From the sequence record MK639187: DNA of 64,000 bases. The stretch is one strand, 5' to 3'. This DNA comes from Shigella phage SSE1. Below are positions 5,532-51,641 of the stretch, one piece after another. Made by a program: the position numbers and the translations under genes. The notes beneath the pieces are model-generated. The model ran no database searches. It saw only the letters and a list, made by a program, of their open reading frames with translations, and was not told the origin of the DNA. Position 1 is the stretch's first letter; the number at the start of each line of letters is the position of its first letter.

Positions 5532-5560
5532 GTTTACATCCTCAATAGATGTGTTAAGAT
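5532..5560 (+). promoter_or_regulatory. T4-type early promoter (GTTTAC-17-TAAGAT)
   Basis: Seen in sequence, upstream of ORF 5589. Confidence 0.6.
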
Positions 5561-5588
5561 TAAACCATCTACTATAGAGGAAAATAAA

Positions 5589-5771
5589 ATGACAATTGAA
5601 GATAAAGAAATTAAGGTCGACCAGTACTATTCTGTCAACGGTAGTGCAGTACAGATAACCAGAGTTTCAAGCCTGGATGTTTGGTACCGTTCGATCAAAT
5701 ATCCAGAAATTGGTGAAATGCTTTGTGTCCGTGGTATCTTCTGTTCAATTGCGAAGGAAATTAAGCCATGA
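5589..5771 (+). CDS. Hypothetical small protein
   Basis: ATG 5589 after GAGGA and an early promoter; ORF-track extension to 5427 would span the promoter. Confidence 0.5.
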   Translation: MTIEDKEIKVDQYYSVNGSAVQITRVSSLDVWYRSIKYPEIGEMLCVRGIFCSIAKEIKP

Positions 5772-6658: not shown

Positions 6659-6697
6659 ATGTACAACGATAGGAAGACATGTTATTATCTTCCTATC
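6659..6697 (+). promoter_or_regulatory. Early promoter with -10 inside inverted repeat ATAGGAAGA/TCTTCCTAT (PeSL-like)
   Basis: ATGTAC...TATTAT flanked by 9-bp inverted repeat. Confidence 0.5.
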
Positions 6698-6719
6698 GTC
6701 TTAAAACGAGGAAAATATC

Positions 6720-6959: not shown

Positions 6960-6995
6960 TATATAAACTCTTGAGAGCAGAGTATAATTCTCTCA
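6958..6995 (+). promoter_or_regulatory. Promoter cassette copy AAACTCTTGAGAGCAGAGTATAAT (second copy at 51574)
   Basis: TATAAT 6983-6988 inside GAGAG/CTCTC stem; -35 region degenerate. Confidence 0.45.
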
Positions 6996-7025
6996 TTGGA
7001 TAATAAAATAACCGAGGAAAATAAT

Positions 7026-7737: not shown

Positions 7738-8295
7738 ATGACTGAACAAAAACCTAAAAATAACTATGTGAATAATAAAGAGCTTCTCGCCGCTATAATC
7801 GAGTGGAAAAAGGAGCTCTTAAATAATAAAGACCCAAACAAAATTATTCGTCAGAATGATACCATCGGTTTAGCAATTATGCTTATCGCTGAAGGCCTGT
7901 CCAAACGTTTCAACTTTTCAGGATATACCCAGTCTTGGAAGCAGGAGATGATTGCAGATGGGATTGAAGCCTCTATTAAGGGACTTCATAATTTCGACGA
8001 AACTAAGTACAATAACCCACATGCATACATAACTCGAGCTTGTTTTAATGCTTTTGTCCAACGTATCAAAAAAGAACGTAAGGAAGTTGCAAAGAAATAT
8101 AGTTACTTCGTTCATAATGTCTACGACAGTCATGACGATGATATGGTAGCGTTGGTAGATGAAACGTTTATTCAAGACATCTACGATAAAATGACGCATT
8201 ATGAAGAATCCGCTTATAAAGCTCCTGGGGCTGAAAAGAAGGAAGTTGTTAGCGATTCGCCTAGTTTGGATTTTTTATATGAGGATGACAATTGA
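7738..8295 (+). CDS. 55: Late-transcription sigma factor gp55
   Basis: 185 aa, recognised as T4 gp55-like across its length. Confidence 0.9.
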
Positions 8296-9213: not shown

Positions 9214-9238
9214 GAACTCTTCGGAGTTCCTTTTTTGC
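9213..9238 (+). terminator. Intrinsic terminator (GGAACTC-TTCG-GAGTTCC, T6)
   Basis: Seen in sequence, upstream of gp47. Confidence 0.7.
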
Positions 9239-9282
9239 TTTATAAACGGATGATAGAATGAATTAACTAATGAGGAAATAAT

Positions 9283-10782: not shown

Positions 10783-12467
10783 AATCATTTAAATTAAATC
10801 GTGTTCGTTATCAAAACATCATGTCGGTAGGTGGGAATCCTATTGATATCCAATTAGATAAAGTCCAAAAGACATTAATCACTGGTAAAAATGGCGGTGG
10901 TAAATCTACGATGTTAGAAGCCATTACTTTCGGACTTTTCGGTAAACCATTTCGTGATGTTAAGAAAGGACAAATCATTAACAGCACGAACAAGAAAGAG
11001 CTCTTAGTTGAGCTTTGGATGGAATTCGATGATAAAAAATACTTCATTAAACGTGGCCAAAAGCCCAATATTTTCGAAATCTCCGTTGACGGTGTTCGTC
11101 TTGATGAATCTGCCAGCAGTCGGGACTTCCAAGAAGAATTTGAACGTAGCATCGGAATGTCATACGCGTCTTTTAAACAAATCGTTGTGCTTGGGACGGC
11201 AGGGTATACCCCTTTCATGGCTCTTAGCACCCCTGCTCGCAGAAAACTTGTCGAAGACCTTTTAGAAGTCGGCACACTCGCTGAAATGGATAAAATCAAT
11301 AAGTCTCAAGTTCGAGAACTTAATTCCCAGGGACAAGTTCTAGATGCCAAGAAAGATGGTATTATCCAACAAATTAAGATTTATAACGAGAATATCGAAC
11401 GTCAAAAGAAATTATCTGGTGATAATGTAGCGCGTCTACAGAATATGTATGACGACCTAGCCAAAGAAGCTCGTTCATTAAAAGCAGAAATCGAAGAAGC
11501 TAATGAGCGACTACTTAATATCGTTCTTGATGAAGACCCTACTGAGGCATTCAACAAGATAGGACAAGAAGCATTCTTGATTAAATCTAAAATTGACTCA
11601 TATAACAAAGTTATTAAGATGTATCATGATGGTGGTACATGTCCTACTTGTGCATCACAGTTGCACCAGGGTGATCCTATTGTCTCTAAGATTACCGATA
11701 AGCTTCACGAATGTAATCACTCATTCGAGCAACTTACATGTCACAGAGATAATCTGAGTGTCCTAGTGGACGAATATAGAGCTAATGTTAAGACTAAACA
11801 GGACCTTGCATCTGATATTCGTACCAAGAAACAAGCAATGATTGCCACTATTGATAAAGCTAAGAAAGTTAAAGCTGCAATAGAACAAGCCTCGGCAGAA
11901 TTTATCGACCATGCCGATGAGATAGCTTTGCTTCAAAAAGAACTTGATAAAATCATTAAAACAAAATCAGATATCGTTCTTGAAAAATACCATCGTGGTA
12001 TTATCACAGATATGTTAAAAGATTCTGGTATTAAAGGTGCTATCATTAAAAAATACGTGCCTCTGTTCAACAAGCAGATTAACTATTATCTTAAAATCAT
12101 GGAAGCTGATTACGTGTTTTCTATTGACGAAGAATTCAATGAATCTATAAAATCACGTGGTCGTGAAGATTTTAGTTATGCTTCATTTAGTCAAGGTGAA
12201 AAGGCACGTATCGATATCGCATTGTTGTTTACATGGCGAGATATTGCTGAAAAGGTCTCTGGTGTTAAAATCAACACTCTGATTCTTGATGAGGTTTTTG
12301 ATGGTGCTGTCGATTCTGAGGCTGTTAAGGCTATAGATACCATTCTTGGAAGTTTACAAAATACTAATGTGTTCATTATCTCTCATCGAGACCATGACCC
12401 TCAACGTTATGGACAACATCTTCAGATGAGCAAAGTTGGACGATTTACTGTAATGACTGTTTCATAA
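10779..12467 (+). CDS. 46: Recombination ATPase subunit gp46 (Rad50/SbcC-like)
   Basis: 562 aa, Walker A GKNGGGKST, coiled-coil middle with CPTC zinc hook, C-terminal signature/Walker B (ILDEVFD). Confidence 0.9.
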   Translation: MKSFKLNRVRYQNIMSVGGNPIDIQLDKVQKTLITGKNGGGKSTMLEAITFGLFGKPFRDVKKGQIINSTNKKELLVELWMEFDDKKYFIKRGQKPNIFEISVDGVRLDESASSRDFQEEFERSIGMSYASFKQIVVLGTAGYTPFMALSTPARRKLVEDLLEVGTLAEMDKINKSQVRELNSQGQVLDAKKDGIIQQIKIYNENIERQKKLSGDNVARLQNMYDDLAKEARSLKAEIEEANERLLNIVLDEDPTEAFNKIGQEAFLIKSKIDSYNKVIKMYHDGGTCPTCASQLHQGDPIVSKITDKLHECNHSFEQLTCHRDNLSVLVDEYRANVKTKQDLASDIRTKKQAMIATIDKAKKVKAAIEQASAEFIDHADEIALLQKELDKIIKTKSDIVLEKYHRGIITDMLKDSGIKGAIIKKYVPLFNKQINYYLKIMEADYVFSIDEEFNESIKSRGREDFSYASFSQGEKARIDIALLFTWRDIAEKVSGVKINTLILDEVFDGAVDSEAVKAIDTILGSLQNTNVFIISHRDHDPQRYGQHLQMSKVGRFTVMTVS

Positions 12468-12468
12468 A

Positions 12469-12501
12469 CGCTTTAACATGATGTGGTTATAATGACCACA
12501 T
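12469..12501 (+). promoter_or_regulatory. Middle-promoter-like site (cGCTTTA-12-TATAAT) inside inverted repeat ATGTGGT/ACCACAT
   Basis: Seen in sequence. Confidence 0.45.
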
Positions 12502-12521
12502 CAAATTAAATGGAGAACAAC

Positions 12522-12722: not shown

Positions 12723-13139
12723 ATGTTTACTACTGCTAAAGGTTTCACTGCTGCTGATCTGAAAGTTACTTCTATCCGTACTGACGCTAACCCACATAAC
12801 CATAATCGTGTTCGTAAAGCATGGGTCCTGCATTGTGATGACGCAAGTGCTAAAAAACTCCAATCTTTGCCACAAGAAACTCGTTTTATGATTTATGGTT
12901 TTATTGATAACGATGTATCTGATATGTGGATTCATCTGATGCGTAAGCACTATAAAGATTCTATTGAAGCCGGCGGAAAAATCGTTCTTGATAAAGATGG
13001 TTCTGAGCGTCTGGAAGATCTCTACTGCGTTGATGCCGACGAACAACTAATTGCAGCTGGCGAAATTGTTGCTTCTAAAATTCCAGAATATATTGAATCA
13101 CTGCCTGAAGCTATTAAAAAGCAGATGGTTGCTGCATAA
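12723..13139 (+). CDS. rpbA: Hypothetical protein in the rpbA position upstream of gp45
   Basis: 138 aa; assignment by synteny only. Confidence 0.45.
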   Translation: MFTTAKGFTAADLKVTSIRTDANPHNHNRVRKAWVLHCDDASAKKLQSLPQETRFMIYGFIDNDVSDMWIHLMRKHYKDSIEAGGKIVLDKDGSERLEDLYCVDADEQLIAAGEIVASKIPEYIESLPEAIKKQMVAA

Positions 13140-13179
13140 TAAATTTGTTAAACTTTGAATTGTCTTGAAAGGAAATAAA

Positions 13180-13866
13180 ATGAAACTGTCTAAAGATACT
13201 ATCGCTATTCTGAAAAACTTTGCCTCTATTAACTCTGGCATTCTGCTGAGTCAAGGTAAATTTATTATGACTCGTGCAGTTAATGGCACCACTTATGCGG
13301 AAGCAAATATCTCTGATGAAATTGATTTTGACGTAGCACTTTATGATTTGAATAGCTTCTTAAGTATTTTGAGTCTAGTGTCTGATGATGCTGAAATTTC
13401 AATGCACACCGATGGCAATATTAAAATTGCAGATACACGTTCCACAGTTTATTGGCCTGCCGCTGACAAGAGCACCATTGTTTTTCCTAATAAGCCAATT
13501 CAATTCCCAGTGGCTTCTGTGATTACTGAAATTAAAGCTGAAGACCTTCAACAATTGCTTCGAGTTTCACGTGGTCTTCAGATTGATACAATTGCTATTA
13601 CAAATAAAGATGGTAAAATTGTTATCAATGGCTATAATAAAGTTGAAGATTCTGGACTAACCCGTCCTAAGTATTCTTTGACTCTTACCGATTATGACGG
13701 TTCTAACAATTTTAACTTCGTAATCAATATGGCTAATATGAAAATCCAGCCAGGTAACTATAAAGTAATGTTGTGGGGAGCTGGTGATAAAGTTGCAGCC
13801 AAGTTTGAAAGCCCTCAAGTAAGTTATGTTATTGCGATGGAAGCCGATTCTACTCACGACTTCTAA
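13180..13866 (+). CDS. 45: Sliding clamp gp45
   Basis: 228 aa from MKLSKDT, recognised as T4 gp45-like. Confidence 0.9.
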   Translation: MKLSKDTIAILKNFASINSGILLSQGKFIMTRAVNGTTYAEANISDEIDFDVALYDLNSFLSILSLVSDDAEISMHTDGNIKIADTRSTVYWPAADKSTIVFPNKPIQFPVASVITEIKAEDLQQLLRVSRGLQIDTIAITNKDGKIVINGYNKVEDSGLTRPKYSLTLTDYDGSNNFNFVINMANMKIQPGNYKVMLWGAGDKVAAKFESPQVSYVIAMEADSTHDF

Positions 13867-28309: not shown

Positions 28310-28339
28310 GTTTACATCTTCCTCTAGGCATGATATGAT
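28310..28339 (+). promoter_or_regulatory. T4-type early promoter (GTTTAC...TATGAT)
   Basis: Seen in sequence. Confidence 0.6.
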
Positions 28340-28368
28340 GAACTTACACCAACCAAGAGGAAAACATT

Positions 28369-28743
28369 ATGAATATGTCTCAAGCAATTTTTACTGCAAT
28401 CACCGAAAACACAACTGTTGAAGTAGTTTCTCCGCTGGCAACCTACGTTATTCTTGCTCCTAAAACTATTGTATCTCGTATGGAAAACACAGGCAAACGT
28501 ATCGTACAAATAGTTGGAGCTGGAAATCAAAAACTTGATTATCTACGAACCATCAAAGCTTATGAACATTTCCAACTCGAAAAAGGTTCTCCTATCCAGG
28601 TAGAACTCGTAAATGGTGATATCGTTCGAGCAATGTTCCATCATTTCTATGCATTGAATGACCCGTCTAAAGCGGTTCGTTTAATTGCATACGACGCAAA
28701 CCAAAACGAAATCAACGCAGATATATCTAAATTACGTTTTTAA
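28369..28743 (+). CDS. Hypothetical protein
   Basis: 124-aa ORF after early promoter 28310-28339. Confidence 0.5.
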   Translation: MNMSQAIFTAITENTTVEVVSPLATYVILAPKTIVSRMENTGKRIVQIVGAGNQKLDYLRTIKAYEHFQLEKGSPIQVELVNGDIVRAMFHHFYALNDPSKAVRLIAYDANQNEINADISKLRF

Positions 28744-28744
28744 G

Positions 28745-28793
28745 TTTACTTCTCCAGTAGTTGTGTTATTATAGACCTATCAACTACTGGAGA
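28745..28793 (+). promoter_or_regulatory. Early promoter with -10 inside 12-bp inverted repeat (PeSL-like)
   Basis: GTTTAC-17-TATTAT; CTCCAGTAGTTG/CAACTACTGGAG. Confidence 0.6.
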
Positions 28794-28798
28794 ACAAA

Positions 28799-29116
28799 AT
28801 GAAAACCATCGATTGTAAAGCAGAATTTAAGATTTTTTATCACGGTTCAAGTAGTTCAGCTAACATCGAAAACATGCTTTGTCCTCCTGAAGAAACAGGA
28901 GTTCTGTCTGAAACAGGACGTAAGAAAAACTTGGATCGTGTATTCTTTACCGAAGATATCGGTTTAGCAAAGATTTATGCAGGACGAGCAGCACGCTCTT
29001 ATGGAGGTGAACCACGTCTCTATCGAGTAATTTCTCCGGTAGATGTAGTTCAAATGAATAATACTAAAGGTGCTACAGTTTATCACGCTGAATGGGCATT
29101 TTGCGAGGAAATATGA
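28799..29116 (+). CDS. Hypothetical protein with YHGS motif
   Basis: 105-aa ORF after promoter cassette 28745-28793. Confidence 0.5.
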   Translation: MKTIDCKAEFKIFYHGSSSSANIENMLCPPEETGVLSETGRKKNLDRVFFTEDIGLAKIYAGRAARSYGGEPRLYRVISPVDVVQMNNTKGATVYHAEWAFCEEI

Positions 29117-30055: not shown

Positions 30056-30092
30056 GTTTACATTATAGATGGACTCTATAGTATAGTAGTCC
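30056..30092 (+). promoter_or_regulatory. Early promoter with GGACT/AGTCC stem (PeSL-like)
   Basis: GTTTAC-17-TAGTAT. Confidence 0.5.
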
Positions 30093-30116
30093 TATCAAAT
30101 CAACTAAGGAGTTAAA

Positions 30117-36061: not shown

Positions 36062-36089
36062 TTTACATTCCCTCCTCTCGTGTTATGAT
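36061..36089 (+). promoter_or_regulatory. T4-type early promoter (GTTTAC-17-TATGAT)
   Basis: Seen in sequence. Confidence 0.55.
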
Positions 36090-36189
36090 AGGCTTATCTT
36101 TAAATGGAGGTCTATCATGACATGTCAATCTGAACTTCAAGAACGCGAATACCTAACAAAATCATTCATTTGAAAATGTTGAATTTTTA

Positions 36190-40069: not shown

Positions 40070-40099
40070 GTTTACAACCAAGGATGGTTGGAGTATAAT
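40070..40099 (+). promoter_or_regulatory. Early promoter with spacer hairpin CAACCA/TGGTTG
   Basis: GTTTAC...TATAAT. Confidence 0.55.
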
Positions 40100-40627: not shown

Positions 40628-40657
40628 TTGTACATCCAAGGATGGATGGAGTATAAT
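40628..40657 (+). promoter_or_regulatory. Early promoter, duplicate of the 40070 cassette
   Basis: TTGTAC...TATAAT with CATCCA/TGGATG. Confidence 0.55.
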
Positions 40658-41151: not shown

Positions 41152-41571
41152 ATGAATATTGTAAATCTCTCTACAGGTGATTACGTATATGTATCTGTTG
41201 CTTCTCGCTCTAAAGTTGCCGGGAAGTTGGTTGAAGTTCTTTCTGTGAGTGATCCGGTTTTTGGTCGTAACCAAGTTAAAGTTCGTGACGCCGATGGTAA
41301 CATTGGTTACGTTAAAAGCCAATTTATTGAACCAGAAGAAAAAGCGTTCAAATGGAAACTGGGCAGATCAGTTTTAGTTGTAAAAGACTACGAGTTCACC
41401 ATTGCCGCTGCGACAGATGGAACACCGTGGACAACGAATCAAGTTGCTGGTTTTATTTCGGACCAATGGGTAGAAGATGGTGTTAAGCTTTATAACATTG
41501 TTTTCGCTGGGCAGTTCATGGTAGTTCCTGAGTTCCAAATCAAAAAATATTGTCCAGCATCTTTTGCATAA
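41152..41571 (+). CDS. Paralogue family protein 3
   Basis: 139 aa, shares N- and C-terminal motifs with protein 2. Confidence 0.55.
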   Translation: MNIVNLSTGDYVYVSVASRSKVAGKLVEVLSVSDPVFGRNQVKVRDADGNIGYVKSQFIEPEEKAFKWKLGRSVLVVKDYEFTIAAATDGTPWTTNQVAGFISDQWVEDGVKLYNIVFAGQFMVVPEFQIKKYCPASFA

Positions 41572-41575
41572 AGTT

Positions 41576-41626
41576 GTTTACTTCTCCTCCGGTTTTGATA
41601 TTATAACCATATCAACCAGAGGAGAA
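41576..41626 (+). promoter_or_regulatory. Early promoter with TCTCCTC/GAGGAGA inverted repeat spanning -10 and the downstream SD
   Basis: GTTTAC-17-TATTAT. Confidence 0.5.
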
Positions 41627-41630
41627 TAAT

Positions 41631-42155
41631 ATGTTAGTTTACCGCGTAGAACGTAGTTTTTGTACTCAACGTGAATCATTACCAGGAATTGCTATCGAAG
41701 ATGGTAAAGCCGTCAGAATTTGGGAAACCTCTTGGAATAAAGAACCTCGTTCGCCGTATGGTTGGTCGGGCACCGACAACTCTGAAGAAACATGGGAGTT
41801 CCTTGATAAGCATGGAATACTCTCAGGTAACTTCTACCATCACGGCGACAACTATAATGTCCCTAATCGTCCTACAGTAAATGAAGACAAACTCCTTGAA
41901 CAAAATATCTTAAGATACTATAGAATTGAGCACACATTTGAATTGAGTGAAGATTGGGCTCAAGGGTTCTATTTTGGATTTGAAAGTGTTGACGCGGTTT
42001 ATGCATGGTTTGATGACCAGGTGGATGTTGAACTCTTGAAAGCTAAAGGATACTACATCGCGGTCTATGAAGCACCTGATTTCATCCTCGGAAGTTGTCA
42101 ATTAATGTTTAGACGTTCATTGGCAGAACAAGTTGATTTTATTTTGCTAAAATGA
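41631..42155 (+). CDS. Hypothetical protein
   Basis: 174-aa ORF after promoter 41576-41604. Confidence 0.5.
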   Translation: MLVYRVERSFCTQRESLPGIAIEDGKAVRIWETSWNKEPRSPYGWSGTDNSEETWEFLDKHGILSGNFYHHGDNYNVPNRPTVNEDKLLEQNILRYYRIEHTFELSEDWAQGFYFGFESVDAVYAWFDDQVDVELLKAKGYYIAVYEAPDFILGSCQLMFRRSLAEQVDFILLK

Positions 42156-42184
42156 TGTACAACAACTATGGTCTATGATACTAT
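42155..42184 (+). promoter_or_regulatory. Early promoter (ATGTAC...TACTAT)
   Basis: Seen in sequence. Confidence 0.45.
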
Positions 42185-42212
42185 AGACCTATCAAAACAA
42201 GAGGAGAATATT

Positions 42213-42440
42213 ATGAAACGTCAAATCATTAAAAACGTAACTACTGATTCAAACATCGATGAGTTTGAAGATGTTCTGTTTAATCCTGATTTAGTTGTTG
42301 TACAGAAAAACTGGACCGAATTTTTATGCTACACTGAAGTGGTTTACGTTTACGAAAAACTCGGCGATGAAATGCCTATCTATGGTATCTTCCGTGAAAT
42401 CACTGAAAACGGTACAACTTATTGGAAGGAAACTTACTAA
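42213..42440 (+). CDS. Hypothetical protein
   Basis: ATG 42213 after GAGGAGA. Confidence 0.45.
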
Positions 42441-43034: not shown

Positions 43035-43460
43035 ATGGCTTTTAAAGGTTTTGAAGTTGGTAAGAAATATCGTATTATCAAAGGACAGGAAGATAATTTC
43101 TTGAGAATTCTTAATACGACTGGTAAGCGTCTTAATACTAATCTGCATACTACTTTATTGTCCAAAGATTTTATTGTGGAAGAGATGATTGGTTACGGCG
43201 TTTCGGTTATTGCTGTAGAAGCCGTAGGCGATTATGGCCGAACTATTCATAGTATGCAAGGTGATATTCTGATTTATGGTGCAGAATTTAAATTCTTTGA
43301 AGAAGTTCCGGAACCAGATACAGCTGTCGATTTCAAAAAAGGCTCTATAGAATTTGTTGATGGTTCGGTGATCGTATCAGGCGATGTGGTCATTACAGTT
43401 AAAAGTGAACAAGGGCGTTTAGCTGCAATTGATGCACTTCAGAAAATTAAATTTAAATAA
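43035..43460 (+). CDS. Hypothetical protein
   Basis: 141-aa ORF followed by hairpin terminator. Confidence 0.5.
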   Translation: MAFKGFEVGKKYRIIKGQEDNFLRILNTTGKRLNTNLHTTLLSKDFIVEEMIGYGVSVIAVEAVGDYGRTIHSMQGDILIYGAEFKFFEEVPEPDTAVDFKKGSIEFVDGSVIVSGDVVITVKSEQGRLAAIDALQKIKFK

Positions 43461-43478
43461 GGGCTTCGGCCCTTTTTG
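43461..43478 (+). terminator. Intrinsic terminator upstream of gp39 (GGGC-TTCG-GCCC, T5)
   Basis: Seen in sequence. Confidence 0.6.
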
Positions 43479-43523
43479 CTTTAGATTTCGGATGATAGAA
43501 TACCTTCATAACGAGGAGACAAC

Positions 43524-46484: not shown

Positions 46485-46576
46485 ATCCTGAATAGCCTGA
46501 GGCACTATTACACATAAGATGATAGATTATATGGTCTTTAGTAATAGTGCCCTAGGAATCTACTGAAGAGAATATT

Positions 46577-46777
46577 ATGAGAACATATAACGTGGACTTG
46601 GACCTTTTTGATAAAGCGGTGCTCCGGGAATTCCGGCTTATCCAAAGATTTTTTGATATCGAGTCGGCAGAGTCCTTTAAAGAACGCTTTAAAGAAATTC
46701 GATATAAAATACAAACCGATACAGCTACTAAAGAAGAACTTCTTGAAGTAGCAGAAATTTTTAAACGTAACTTGTGA
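46577..46777 (+). CDS. Hypothetical protein (rIIA.1-like position)
   Basis: 66-aa ORF. Confidence 0.45.
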   Translation: MRTYNVDLDLFDKAVLREFRLIQRFFDIESAESFKERFKEIRYKIQTDTATKEELLEVAEIFKRNL

Positions 46778-50794: not shown

Positions 50795-50830
50795 GTTTAC
50801 AACTAAGTAGGACTATGATATAGTAGTCCT
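50795..50830 (+). promoter_or_regulatory. Early promoter with AGGACT/AGTCCT stem (PeSL-like)
   Basis: GTTTAC-17-ATATAG. Confidence 0.5.
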
Positions 50831-50850
50831 ATCTAAAAGAGGATAACATT

Positions 50851-51306: not shown

Positions 51307-51344
51307 GTTTACATCAAGGTAGGATTATGGTATAGTAGTCCTAC
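51307..51344 (+). promoter_or_regulatory. Early promoter with GTAGGA/TCCTAC stem (PeSL-like)
   Basis: GTTTAC...TATAGT. Confidence 0.5.
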
Positions 51345-51364
51345 TGAAACATGAGGAACACAAA

Positions 51365-51567: not shown

Positions 51568-51604
51568 TTGTACAAACTCTTGAGAGCAGAGTATAATGCT
51601 CTCA
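51568..51604 (+). promoter_or_regulatory. Early promoter cassette upstream of ndd (TTGTAC...TATAAT in TGAGAGC/GCTCTCA stem)
   Basis: 24 nt identical to the 6965-6988 copy. Confidence 0.55.
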
Positions 51605-51641
51605 TGGATTACAAAAACATTAATCAATTGAGGAAATTAGC

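What the first reader, a model, noticed from the sequence alone, without database searches (positions are those of the whole stretch)
41576..41626. Inverted repeats pairing promoter-proximal sequence with the downstream Shine-Dalgarno
At 41583-41626 (TCTCCTC/GAGGAGA) and 28751-28793 (CTCCAGTAGTTG/CAACTACTGGAG) the 3' arm overlaps the SD of the next gene and the 5' arm lies upstream of the likely start site. Read-through transcripts would therefore sequester the SD, while transcripts from the local promoter would not. This mechanism is known for some T4 genes.
Basis: inference. Interest (0 to 1): 0.45.

Follow-up and report, generated by a model that had tools for sequence, protein, structure and literature searches.

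The report
Early-promoter hairpins that hide ribosome sites
In this T4-like phage, two strong early promoters sit inside hairpins, so RNA arriving from upstream is predicted to bury the next gene's ribosome-binding site while RNA started at the local promoter leaves it open; this is an early-promoter version of a trick known for a few T4 late genes, and it also occurs in T4 itself.

Summary
The window is a Mosigvirus (RB69/JS09-like T4-type phage). Both sites are early-promoter cassettes: GTTTAC, 16-nt spacer, TGnTATTAT, SD, ATG. The 5' arm fills the promoter spacer and the 3' arm ends in the SD. Arms are longer than reported: 13 nt with one mismatch at 41582-94/41614-26, and 14 nt perfect at 28750-63/28781-94.

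Read-through RNA folds with the SD buried (-20.6 and -25.0 kcal/mol). RNA from the predicted start sites is unstructured (about -1). Opening the SD costs 12-16 kcal/mol more in read-through RNA.

The pairing looks selected. Orthologous motB.2 cassettes keep the helix through compensatory changes (CTGG/CCAG, CTAG/CTAG, CATG/CATG; T4 has a 17-bp version). An anchored scan (TTCTCC...GGAGAA) shows the inner stem co-varying in 12 independent cassettes (permutation p about 1e-5).

The sites belong to a family of about 21 promoter-plus-stem-loop cassettes in the window. These match published PeSLs, whose stems were described as terminators/attenuators. Only 4-5 of them mask the SD or AUG.

Both SDs also match the RegB nuclease target. 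It is a new variant of a known kind, of moderate interest.

The parts
41152..41571 (+). Upstream MotB-like ORF (139 aa). Its stop codon TAA is at 41569-41571, 11 nt before the 5' arm.
   Evidence: PF17613 motB; phrog_1671
41576..41581 (+). Site 1 -35 element GTTTAC (sigma70 hexamer TTTACT, 41577-82), T4-type early promoter
41582..41594 (+). Site 1 5' arm TTCTCCTCCGGTT (anti-SD), inside the 16-nt promoter spacer. C41590 is the mismatch; relatives have T.
41596..41604 (+). Site 1 extended -10, TGaTATTAT, in the hairpin loop. Predicted start site is about 41611.
   Evidence: TSS predicted, not mapped
41614..41626 (+). Site 1 3' arm AACCAGAGGAGAA containing the SD GAGGAG. GGAGAATAATA matches the RegB/S1 consensus GGAGRAYARAA at 10 of 11 positions.
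41631..42155 (+). Downstream ORF, 174 aa, MotB.2-like, unknown function
28744..28749 (+). Site 2 -35 element GTTTAC. The upstream 124-aa ORF ends with TAA at 28741-43.
28750..28763 (+). Site 2 5' arm TTCTCCAGTAGTTG, inside the promoter spacer
28764..28772 (+). Site 2 extended -10, TGtTATTAT, in the loop. Predicted start site is about 28779.
28781..28794 (+). Site 2 3' arm CAACTACTGGAGAA containing the SD GGAG. GGAGAACAAAA matches the RegB/S1 consensus at 11 of 11 positions.
28799..29116 (+). Downstream ORF, 105 aa, phrog_2110, unknown function, conserved in many T4-like phages
5533..5591 (+). Third SD-masking cassette. TCCTC (5539-43) pairs with GAGGA (5577-81) and TAGATG (5546-51) pairs with CATCTA (5566-71). 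ATG at 5589, 60-aa ORF.
   Evidence: -18.4 kcal/mol, z -3.6; 7.8 vs 0.9 kcal/mol
36062..36124 (+). Fourth masking cassette. The -10 region CGTGTTATGATAGGCT (36079-94) pairs with GGTCTATCATGACATG (36109-24), covering the end of the SD and the AUG (36117). Same design as the T4 modB promoter.
   Evidence: (-24.5, z -4.2)
28311..28371 (+). Weak fifth case. TTCCTCT (28319-25) pairs with AGAGGAA (28356-62). It is preceded by a terminator-like hairpin, and the overall fold is not better than shuffles.
   Evidence: (z +0.9)

Best explanation
Each site is a T-even-type early-promoter cassette (a PeSL-class element): stop codon, GTTTAC, spacer, TGnTATTAT, start site, SD, ATG. The promoter spacer has evolved to be the complement of the downstream SD region.

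RNA polymerase arriving from an upstream early promoter transcribes both arms. The resulting 13-14 bp hairpin buries the SD of the next ORF. On read-through RNA that ORF is therefore translationally silent, its GGAG is shielded from RegB, and the untranslated stretch may be prone to Rho-type attenuation.

Polymerase starting at the local promoter begins between the arms, about 3 nt before the 3' arm. That RNA has a free, strong SD.

The net effect is that translation of these small early genes depends on their own promoter only. Output becomes independent of genomic context and is confined to the short period when early promoters fire.

Shown here: sequence geometry, predicted energetics, and covariation of the helix.
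Inferred: start sites, formation of the helix in vivo, and any effect on translation, RegB cleavage or termination.
For: 1. Identity. The window is 99.9% identical to Mosigvirus JS09-type phage pEK20 over 2 kb. The + strand is the early transcription direction.
2. Geometry of both sites.
3. Folding. Read-through RNAs give -20.6 kcal/mol (z -2.9) and -25.0 (z -4.9) with the SD in the stem. RNAs from the predicted start sites give -0.9 and -1.0.
4. SD opening energy, read-through vs local: 19.1 vs 3.5 and 14.5 vs 2.2 kcal/mol. Two more cassettes behave likewise (36117: 13.0 vs 3.9; 5589: 7.8 vs 0.9). The other 17 differ by 3.1 or less.
5. In 20 cassettes, spacers pair with their own SD region better than with those of other cassettes (permutation p 0.003). 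For the whole downstream region the p is 5e-5.
6. Anti-SD tetramers (CTCC/CCTC) occur in 5 of 21 spacers, against a 3.9% background (p 0.001).
7. Orthologue covariation at motB.2:
   - Mosigvirus: TTCTCCTCTGGTT / AACCAGAGGAGAA.
   - ESCO47: ...CTAG / CTAG...
   - Dhakavirus Bp7/JS98: ...CATG / CATG...
   - T4: a 17-bp stem with three G.U pairs (read-through -34.9 kcal/mol, z -7.3; local -2.3).
   - RNAalifold finds 2 pairs with changes on both sides.
8. Anchored scan of IMG/VR with only TTCTCC...GGAGAA fixed. Twelve distinct promoter-type cassettes extend the helix by 0, 0, 1, 1, 2, 5, 7, 8, 8, 8, 8 and 10 further bp, using different sequences. Cross-pairings average 0.73. Ten non-promoter hits extend 0-2. 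Permutation p is about 1e-5.
9. No intrinsic terminator lies between the upstream promoters and either site.
10. Precedent. T4 e, soc, 49 and I-TevI are silenced in long transcripts by a helix whose 5' strand lies upstream of an internal promoter (PMC3014915).
11. RegB. It needs an 11-nt single-stranded GGAGRAYARAA and is inhibited by secondary structure (PMC1702504). Site 2 matches 11 of 11 and site 1 matches 10 of 11.
Against: - There is no experimental start-site, structure-probing or translation data for this phage or for the T4 homologues.
- Most cassette stems in the window (6660, 6960, 30057, 42156, 50796, 51308, 51569) bracket the -10 without reaching the SD. The ancestral role of promoter-embedded stems may be something else, and SD masking could be a by-product in a subset.
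- Orthologues of the site 2 cassette in JS98-like phages keep only 6 bp (TTCTCC/GGAGAA). One relative (L013) has the 3' arm but no 5' arm, so the long helix is dispensable.
- The window's own site 1 carries a destabilising C.A mismatch (duplex -16.5 vs -21.2 kcal/mol).
- Co-transcriptional ribosome loading, or RegB acting on nascent RNA, could pre-empt folding. Durand et al. raise this for T4 modB RNA.
- T4 is known for templated quasi-palindrome mutations (my recollection, not checked). These could create compensatory changes without selection.
Confidence: 0.6

Rival explanations
1. The stem-loop is the terminator/attenuator part of a PeSL, as proposed by Arbiol et al. It reduces transcription entering from upstream, and overlap with the SD is incidental.
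For: PeSL stem-loops placed between or overlapping the -35 and -10 boxes are described in RB49/phi1. One of them lowered downstream lacZ as much as rrnB T1 (PMC2839356). About 21 such cassettes occur in this window, and most stems do not touch the SD.
Against: - Neither stem is followed by a U-tract (AAUAAUAUG and CAAAAUG).
- Loops are 17-19 nt rather than 3-8.
- The terminator scan does not call either site.
- The register is exact. TTCTCC abuts the -35 and pairs with GGAGAA of the SD in 12 independent cassettes, which termination does not require.
- This rival is not exclusive. An untranslated ORF could be attenuated by Rho as a consequence of SD masking.
Confidence: 0.15
2. The main role of the helix is to shield a RegB cleavage site. 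Locally initiated mRNAs expose GGAGRAYARAA and are quickly inactivated by RegB. Long read-through mRNAs keep the site double-stranded and stay intact for downstream cistrons.
For: Site 2 GGAGAACAAAA matches the RegB/S1 consensus at 11 of 11 positions, and site 1 GGAGAATAATA at 10 of 11. RegB requires single-stranded RNA and is inhibited by structure. T4 motB.2 (GGAU) and modB SDs are RegB targets, and modB RNA resists RegB in vitro, presumably because of structure (PMC1702504). T4 motB.2 and modB have the same promoter-spanning helices. RB69 has a divergent regB whose own SD is cleaved in vivo (PMC3014915).
Against: regB lies outside this window and was not checked in this phage. Masking cassettes with GAGGAA-type SDs (5589, 28369) are poor RegB sites (GGAA is very poorly cut). 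This rival is compatible with the main explanation rather than opposed to it.
Confidence: 0.15
3. The inverted repeat is a DNA-level feature. It might be a recombination or cruciform site that drives modular shuffling of promoter-ORF cassettes, or a quasi-palindrome kept by templated repair, with no role in RNA.
For: Recombinant cassettes exist. In phage ST2 the 174-aa gene is deleted by a crossover between the site 1 cassette and the cef cassette (42156-42213). Locus L013 keeps the 3' half only. PeSL-mediated mini-circles are documented (PMC2839356).
Against: - Stems differ between cassettes, which lowers the homology that recombination would need.
- Loops of 15-24 nt disfavour cruciform extrusion.
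- The T4 motB.2 stem has three G.U pairs, and 51308 and L040 have one each. These are A.C mismatches on the other strand, pointing to sense RNA.
- The G.U versus A.C count at helix ends is confounded by composition and is inconclusive.
Confidence: 0.07
4. The hairpin mediates translational coupling. Ribosomes terminating on the upstream ORF melt the base of the stem and free the SD, so on read-through RNA the downstream ORF is translated only when the upstream one is.
For: The upstream stop codons lie 6 nt (site 2) and 10 nt (site 1) before the first base of the stem. The stem base is exactly the TTCCTC-type/GGAGAA pairing (TTCTCC/GGAGAA) that hides the SD.
Against: With the stop codon in the A site, the ribosomal helicase point (about +11 from the P-site codon; from my own knowledge) reaches 28749 and 41577. 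That is just short of the stems at 28750 and 41582, so at most 1-3 bp would fray.
Confidence: 0.03

Closest known systems
T4 genes e (lysozyme), soc, 49 and I-TevI: translation initiation region masked in long transcripts, with a promoter inside the hairpin
   Same: The SD and/or AUG is paired to a 5' strand lying upstream of an internal promoter. Long transcripts are silent and short ones are translated (PMC3014915). The geometry and predicted energetics here are the same.
   Different: Those internal promoters are late (gp55, TATAAATA), and the purpose is to delay translation until late infection. Here the internal promoter is a sigma70-type early promoter, the 5' strand is the promoter spacer itself, and the predicted effect is to restrict translation to the gene's own early promoter. 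No experiments exist for these sites.
PeSLs (promoter-early stem-loop cassettes) of T4-type phages, Arbiol et al. 2010 and Comeau et al. 2014
   Same: These are repeated intergenic cassettes: an AT-rich region, a strong early promoter, SD and ATG, plus a stem-loop between or overlapping the -35 and -10 boxes. They cluster next to small ORFs of unknown function and are associated with insertions and deletions. About 21 such cassettes are in this window, and a PeSL-type deletion is seen in phage ST2.
   Different: The papers interpret the stems as terminators/attenuators and recombination sites. 'Translation' does not occur in the 2010 text. A 3' arm that is the SD is not among its five stem positions. 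For T4/PST the 2014 paper places the stems just upstream of the promoter.
Aeromonas phage Aeh1 mobE and T4 segB hairpins that sequester the ribosome-binding site
   Same: A cis RNA hairpin lowers translation initiation of a phage gene (cited in PMC3014915).
   Different: Those cases concern homing-endonuclease genes. From the review text I could not establish that an early promoter lies inside the hairpin.
RegB/S1 cleavage sites in T4 early mRNAs (GGAGRAYARAA)
   Same: Both SDs match the consensus, and T4 motB.2 and modB are documented RegB targets.
   Different: RegB sites are defined as single-stranded. Here the site is single-stranded only in one of the two transcript forms.

Membership tests
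T4-type promoter-in-hairpin translational masking (e, soc, 49, I-TevI) | SD and/or start codon base-paired in a stable helix in the longer transcript | tested here: met
   Predicted only. MFE and centroid structures pair the SD, with z -2.9 and -4.9. SD opening costs are 14.5 and 19.1 kcal/mol.
T4-type promoter-in-hairpin translational masking (e, soc, 49, I-TevI) | A promoter whose start site lies 3' of the 5' strand, so the short transcript lacks it | tested here: met
   GTTTAC-N16-TGnTATTAT promoters with the 5' arm in the spacer. The start site is predicted, not mapped.
T4-type promoter-in-hairpin translational masking (e, soc, 49, I-TevI) | The internal promoter is a late promoter (TATAAATA), giving delayed, late-only translation | tested here: not met
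   The sequence shows a -35/extended -10 early promoter and no TATAAATA within 41576-41630 or 28744-28798.
T4-type promoter-in-hairpin translational masking (e, soc, 49, I-TevI) | Long transcripts shown experimentally not to be translated | not testable with these tools
   Needs reporter fusions, toeprinting or ribosome profiling.
PeSL cassette | Intergenic unit: upstream stop codon, AT-rich region, sigma70-like early promoter, SD, ATG | tested here: met
PeSL cassette | Stem-loop within or overlapping the promoter | tested here: met
   The stem encloses the -10. A 3' arm reaching the SD is not one of the five published positions.
PeSL cassette | Many copies per genome, next to small ORFs of unknown function | tested here: met
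   21 cassettes in 64 kb. The downstream genes fall in PHROGs of unknown function.
PeSL cassette | Cassettes mark insertion, deletion or replacement endpoints between related phages | tested here: met
   In ST2 the 174-aa gene is deleted by a site 1 x cef cassette crossover. L013 has a replaced 5' half.
PeSL cassette | The stem-loop acts as a transcription terminator/attenuator | not testable with these tools
   Sequence features of an intrinsic terminator are absent (see the next family). Activity needs experiments.
Intrinsic (Rho-independent) terminator | G+C-rich stem, 3-8 nt loop, U-tract immediately 3' | tested here: not met
   Loops are 19 and 17 nt. The tails are UAAUAUG and CAAAAUG. 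Neither site is called by the scan.
RegB/S1 target site | 11-nt GGAGRAYARAA | tested here: met
   GGAGAACAAAA (11 of 11) and GGAGAATAATA (10 of 11), against the consensus in PMC1702504.
RegB/S1 target site | The phage encodes RegB and the site is cut in vivo | not tested
   regB is not in the window. RB69 is reported to have a divergent regB whose own SD is cleaved in vivo.

The most novel reading that the evidence does not exclude
Promoter-spanning anti-SD helices are a general, overlooked design rule of T-even early gene cassettes, including T4 motB.2 and modB. One helix would make each promoter-ORF module autonomous. The gene would be translated only from its own promoter's RNA, which RegB then destroys at the exposed SD. 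Read-through RNA would keep the same SD double-stranded, being both untranslated and RegB-resistant, so that downstream cistrons survive. This would link transcript isoform, translation and programmed mRNA decay. It would also explain why such cassettes can be shuffled between genomic contexts without changing their output.
Probability: 0.3. Interest if true: 0.6.

Novelty: new variant of a known kind. Interest (0 to 1): 0.45.

Why it matters
T4-type phages pack dozens of very strong early promoters a few hundred bases apart, with few terminators between them. Without insulation, a gene's dose would depend on how many promoters lie upstream of it.

A hairpin that silences the gene on all RNAs except those from its own promoter would give context-independent expression limited to the immediate-early period. 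That would suit potentially toxic host-takeover genes and cassettes that move between genomes.

It would also reinterpret part of what the PeSL literature calls attenuator stems. It predicts isoform-specific RegB sensitivity. The idea is directly testable in T4 itself at motB.2 and modB. For synthetic biology, this is a compact promoter/SD insulator about 55 nt long.

Tried and rejected
- **Chance or composition:** rejected by shuffles, cross-cassette permutations and the anchored-scan extension test.
- **Known RNA family:** Rfam at gathering thresholds finds nothing in the whole window.
- **Intrinsic terminator:** features absent.
- **G.U versus A.C test** for sense-RNA selection. Internal mismatches were too few (1 GU, 1 CA, 1 GA). 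Helix-end counts were 12 vs 2 on the inner side and 7 vs 10 on the outer side, but they are confounded by the conserved TG of the extended -10 and the AC of the -35. Inconclusive.
- **Does strong SD masking avoid cassettes preceded by a terminator?** 0 of 14 against 12 of 64, Fisher p 0.076. The sample is biased by my own pattern scan, so this is suggestive only.
- **Single-protein locus search** with the 174-aa protein gave only 3 near-identical loci, and the protein search gave 7 homologues. I used DNA hits and a pattern scan instead.
- **Miller et al. 2003 T4 genome review** (PMC150520) is not held. I could not check whether early-promoter masking is mentioned there. Three further literature searches found no description.
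- **Two folds** (L077, L068) used wrong coordinates and are uninformative.
- **Translational coupling** by the terminating ribosome was considered and judged unlikely on geometry.

Full report
**What the window is.** A 2-kb stretch around site 1 is 99.9% identical to Escherichia phage vB_EcoM-pEK20 (Straboviridae, Tevenvirinae, Mosigvirus JS09) and 93-97% identical to many other Mosigvirus genomes. Gene order around site 1 is srd, dda, dexA, four MotB-like genes, cef, goF-like, gene 39. This is the T4 early region read in the early direction on the + strand. Site 2 lies just downstream of gene 41, in a run of small ORFs that ends with dmd, sp and 61.x homologues.

**The observation.**
- Site 1: TTCTCCTCCGGTT (41582-41594) and AACCAGAGGAGAA (41614-41626). 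13 nt with one C.A mismatch and a 19-nt loop.
- Site 2: TTCTCCAGTAGTTG (28750-28763) and CAACTACTGGAGAA (28781-28794). 14/14 with a 17-nt loop.

The two sites are collinear base for base over the 58 nt from GTTTAC to ATG. They differ mainly in the inner part of the stem, where both arms differ in a complementary way.

Each site reads as follows: stop codon of the upstream ORF, GTTTAC (-35), a 16-nt spacer that is the 5' arm, TGnTATTAT (extended -10, in the loop), ATCAAC, the 3' arm ending in GGAGAA, then 4 nt and ATG. With a start site about 7 nt after the -10 (about 41611 and 28779; predicted, not mapped), locally initiated RNA lacks the 5' arm completely.

**Is it more than chance?**
- In 60 dinucleotide shuffles of the window, a perfect arm of 14 nt or more with an 8-30 nt loop occurs 0.017 times per window (observed 1, site 2).
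- Arms of 13 nt or more with at most one mismatch occur 1.08 times (observed 4). Site 1 is therefore not significant by itself window-wide.
- Site 1 does lie within promoter cassettes, which occupy about 2% of the window. Most relatives have T instead of C at 41590, giving a perfect 13-bp stem (duplex -21.2 vs -16.5 kcal/mol).
- Read-through RNAs fold to -20.6 (z -2.9) and -25.0 kcal/mol (z -4.9) with the SD in the stem. RNAs from the predicted start sites fold to -0.9 and -1.0, no better than shuffles.

**The wider family.** Scanning the + strand finds about 21 early-promoter cassettes of the same build. Their ATGs are at 5589, 6720, 7026, 28369, 28799, 29373, 29803, 30117, 34650, 36117, 36248, 37008, 40131, 40687, 41631, 42214, 50851, 51365, 51642, 53945 and 56454.

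Spacers pair with their own downstream region much better than with the downstream regions of other cassettes: mean -9.9 vs -6.7 kcal/mol, permutation p about 5e-5. For the SD region alone the p is 0.003.

Three layouts occur:
- **3' arm immediately after the -10, near the start site:** 6660, 6960, 30057, 42156, 50796, 51308, 51569.
- **3' arm on the SD or AUG:** 28745, 41577, 5533 and 36062, with 28311 weak.
- **Small hairpin inside the spacer:** 40071, 40629, 53878.

About four or five cassettes show no clear stem.

The cost of opening the SD is much higher in read-through than in local RNA for only four cassettes:

| Cassette (ATG) | Read-through (kcal/mol) | Local (kcal/mol) |
|---|---|---|
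| 28799 | 19.1 | 3.5 |
| 41631 | 14.5 | 2.2 |
| 36117 | 13.0 | 3.9 |
| 5589 | 7.8 | 0.9 |

The other 17 cassettes differ by 3.1 kcal/mol or less. Anti-SD tetramers (CTCC/CCTC) occur in 5 of 21 spacers against a 3.9% background (p 0.001).

**Comparative evidence.**

*Orthologues of the site 1 cassette, upstream of motB.2-like genes*:
- Mosigvirus relatives: TTCTCCTCTGGTT / AACCAGAGGAGAA.
- ESCO47 (protein 68% identical): TTCTCCTCTAG / CTAGAGGAGAA.
- Dhakavirus Bp7/JS98: TTCTCCTCATG / CATGAGGAGAA.
- T4 motB.2: UCCUCGGU(U)AGUUGUGGU / ACCAUAGCUACUGAGGA, a 17-bp stem with three G.U pairs. Read-through fold is -34.9 kcal/mol (z -7.3); the local transcript is -2.3.
- RNAalifold on eight of these finds two pairs changed on both sides with pairing kept.

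*An unbiased test.* I scanned IMG/VR for GTTTACTTCTCC-N26-36-GGAGAA, which fixes only the outer 6 bp.
- Twelve distinct promoter-type cassettes, in front of different genes and in different phages, extend the helix by 0, 0, 1, 1, 2, 5, 7, 8, 8, 8, 8 and 10 further base pairs.
- The inner sequences all differ: GGTTTGACAT, AGTAGTTG, TCTTTTCT, TGTAGATG, TCTAGTTG, TCTGGTT, TCATG.
- Cross-pairings of arms average 0.73. Ten non-promoter chance hits extend 0-2. Permutation p is about 1e-5.
- One of the long-stem cassettes is in Salmonella phage CGG4-1, in the internal-protein/e/denV region.

*T4 modB.* Its promoter has the same layout as the window's 36062 cassette. The -10 region pairs with GGAGG...AUG. 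Read-through is -22.9 kcal/mol (z -4.2); local is -2.3.

*The helix is not indispensable.* JS98-like orthologues of site 2 keep only 6 bp and have a terminator upstream. One relative (L013) has the 3' arm without the 5' arm.

**What it most likely does.** On RNA that has read through from an upstream promoter, the helix hides the SD. On RNA from the local promoter, the SD is free. No intrinsic terminator separates the sites from the nearest upstream early promoters, so read-through RNA should be abundant.

T4 precedents are e, soc, 49 and I-TevI (PMC3014915). Those use late promoters to delay translation. Here the promoter is early, so the predicted consequence is different. The gene is translated only from its own promoter, that is, during the brief immediate-early period, at a dose independent of how many promoters lie upstream.

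A second consequence follows from Durand et al. (PMC1702504). RegB with S1 cuts single-stranded GGAGRAYARAA and is inhibited by structure. Site 2 (GGAGAACAAAA) matches 11 of 11 and site 1 (GGAGAATAATA) 10 of 11. The local transcript should therefore be a prime RegB substrate, while read-through RNA is shielded.

That paper reports T4 motB.2 and modB as RegB targets. It notes that modB RNA resists RegB in vitro, presumably through structure, yet is cut in vivo. This would fit in vivo RNA starting inside the hairpin, but that is my inference.

**Relation to what is known.** The cassettes match published PeSLs (Arbiol 2010; Comeau 2014). These are early promoter plus stem-loop units that are repeated, lie next to small ORFs, and mark indels.

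I see the same recombination signature. In phage ST2 the 174-aa gene is deleted by a crossover between the site 1 cassette and the cef cassette at 42156-42213.

The PeSL papers call the stems terminators/attenuators and do not discuss translation. The two stems studied here lack a U-tract and have 17-19 nt loops, so they are not canonical intrinsic terminators. Attenuation by Rho on the untranslated ORF would reconcile the two views.

I found no paper describing SD masking by early-promoter-spanning hairpins. The main T4 genome review was not available, so prior mention cannot be excluded.

**Verdict.** It is a new variant of two known things, T4 promoter-in-hairpin masking and PeSL cassettes. 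It is of moderate interest, helped by the fact that T4 itself carries clear examples at motB.2 and modB that can be tested directly.

Noticed in passing
window 6660-6699, 6960-7000, 30057-30100, 42156-42190, 50796-50835, 51308-51345, 51569-51606: Other early-promoter cassettes carry inverted repeats that bracket the -10. The 5' arm is in the spacer and the 3' arm is right after the -10, often on the conserved CCTATC motif. An example is ACGATAGGAAGA/TCTTCCTATCGT, 12/12, at 6666-6699. These stems would exist only in read-through RNA but do not touch the SD, and their function is unexplained. The T4 dmd and motB promoters have the same layout.
   Followed up: partly
window 40071-40099 and 40629-40657: Two neighbouring MotB-like gene promoters have a small hairpin wholly inside the spacer, with a compensatory difference: AACCA-AGGA-TGGTT versus ATCCA-AGGA-TGGAT.
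   Followed up: no
window 36062-36173: A full early-promoter cassette drives only an 18-codon ORF (ATG 36117, stop at 36171-36173), followed by another promoter (36191) and a 202-aa ModA/ModB-like ORF. Its -10 region pairs with the AUG exactly as at the T4 modB promoter. It may be a gene remnant or a leader peptide.
   Followed up: partly
window 12460-12512: A middle-type promoter (GCTTTAA MotA-box-like motif plus TATAAT) also has a stem bracketing its -10 (GATGTGGT/ACCACATC). Promoter-spanning stems are therefore not limited to early promoters.
   Followed up: no
window 42156-42213; locus L059 (phage ST2): The cef gene has its own TGTACA-type cassette. In phage ST2 the 174-aa MotB.2-like gene is missing, and a hybrid of the site 1 and cef cassettes sits in front of cef, still with 9+4 bp of anti-SD pairing. 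This is an example of cassette-mediated deletion.
   Followed up: yes
window 41590: This phage lineage has C where most Mosigvirus relatives have T, which creates a C.A mismatch in the site 1 stem (duplex -16.5 vs -21.2 kcal/mol). A 221-nt stretch including it is 100% identical in phage ZQ3.
   Followed up: partly
window 46501-46551: A perfect 11-nt inverted repeat, GGCACTATTAC/GTAATAGTGCC, with a 29-nt loop lies in the gap before the 66-aa ORF at 46577. It is not an early-promoter cassette and remains unexplained.
   Followed up: no
window 9225-9282 and 43459-43523: A terminator hairpin whose T-run runs straight into a MotA-box-like TGCTTTA plus TAGAAT (GATGATAGAAT) occurs twice with nearly the same sequence. 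It looks like a composite terminator plus middle-promoter unit.
   Followed up: no
locus L062 (T4) 8161-8222 and 13130-13191, minus strand: T4 itself has strong promoter-spanning helices that bury the motB.2 SD (read-through fold -34.9 kcal/mol, z -7.3) and the modB SD plus AUG (-22.9, z -4.2). Both genes are documented RegB targets.
   Followed up: yes
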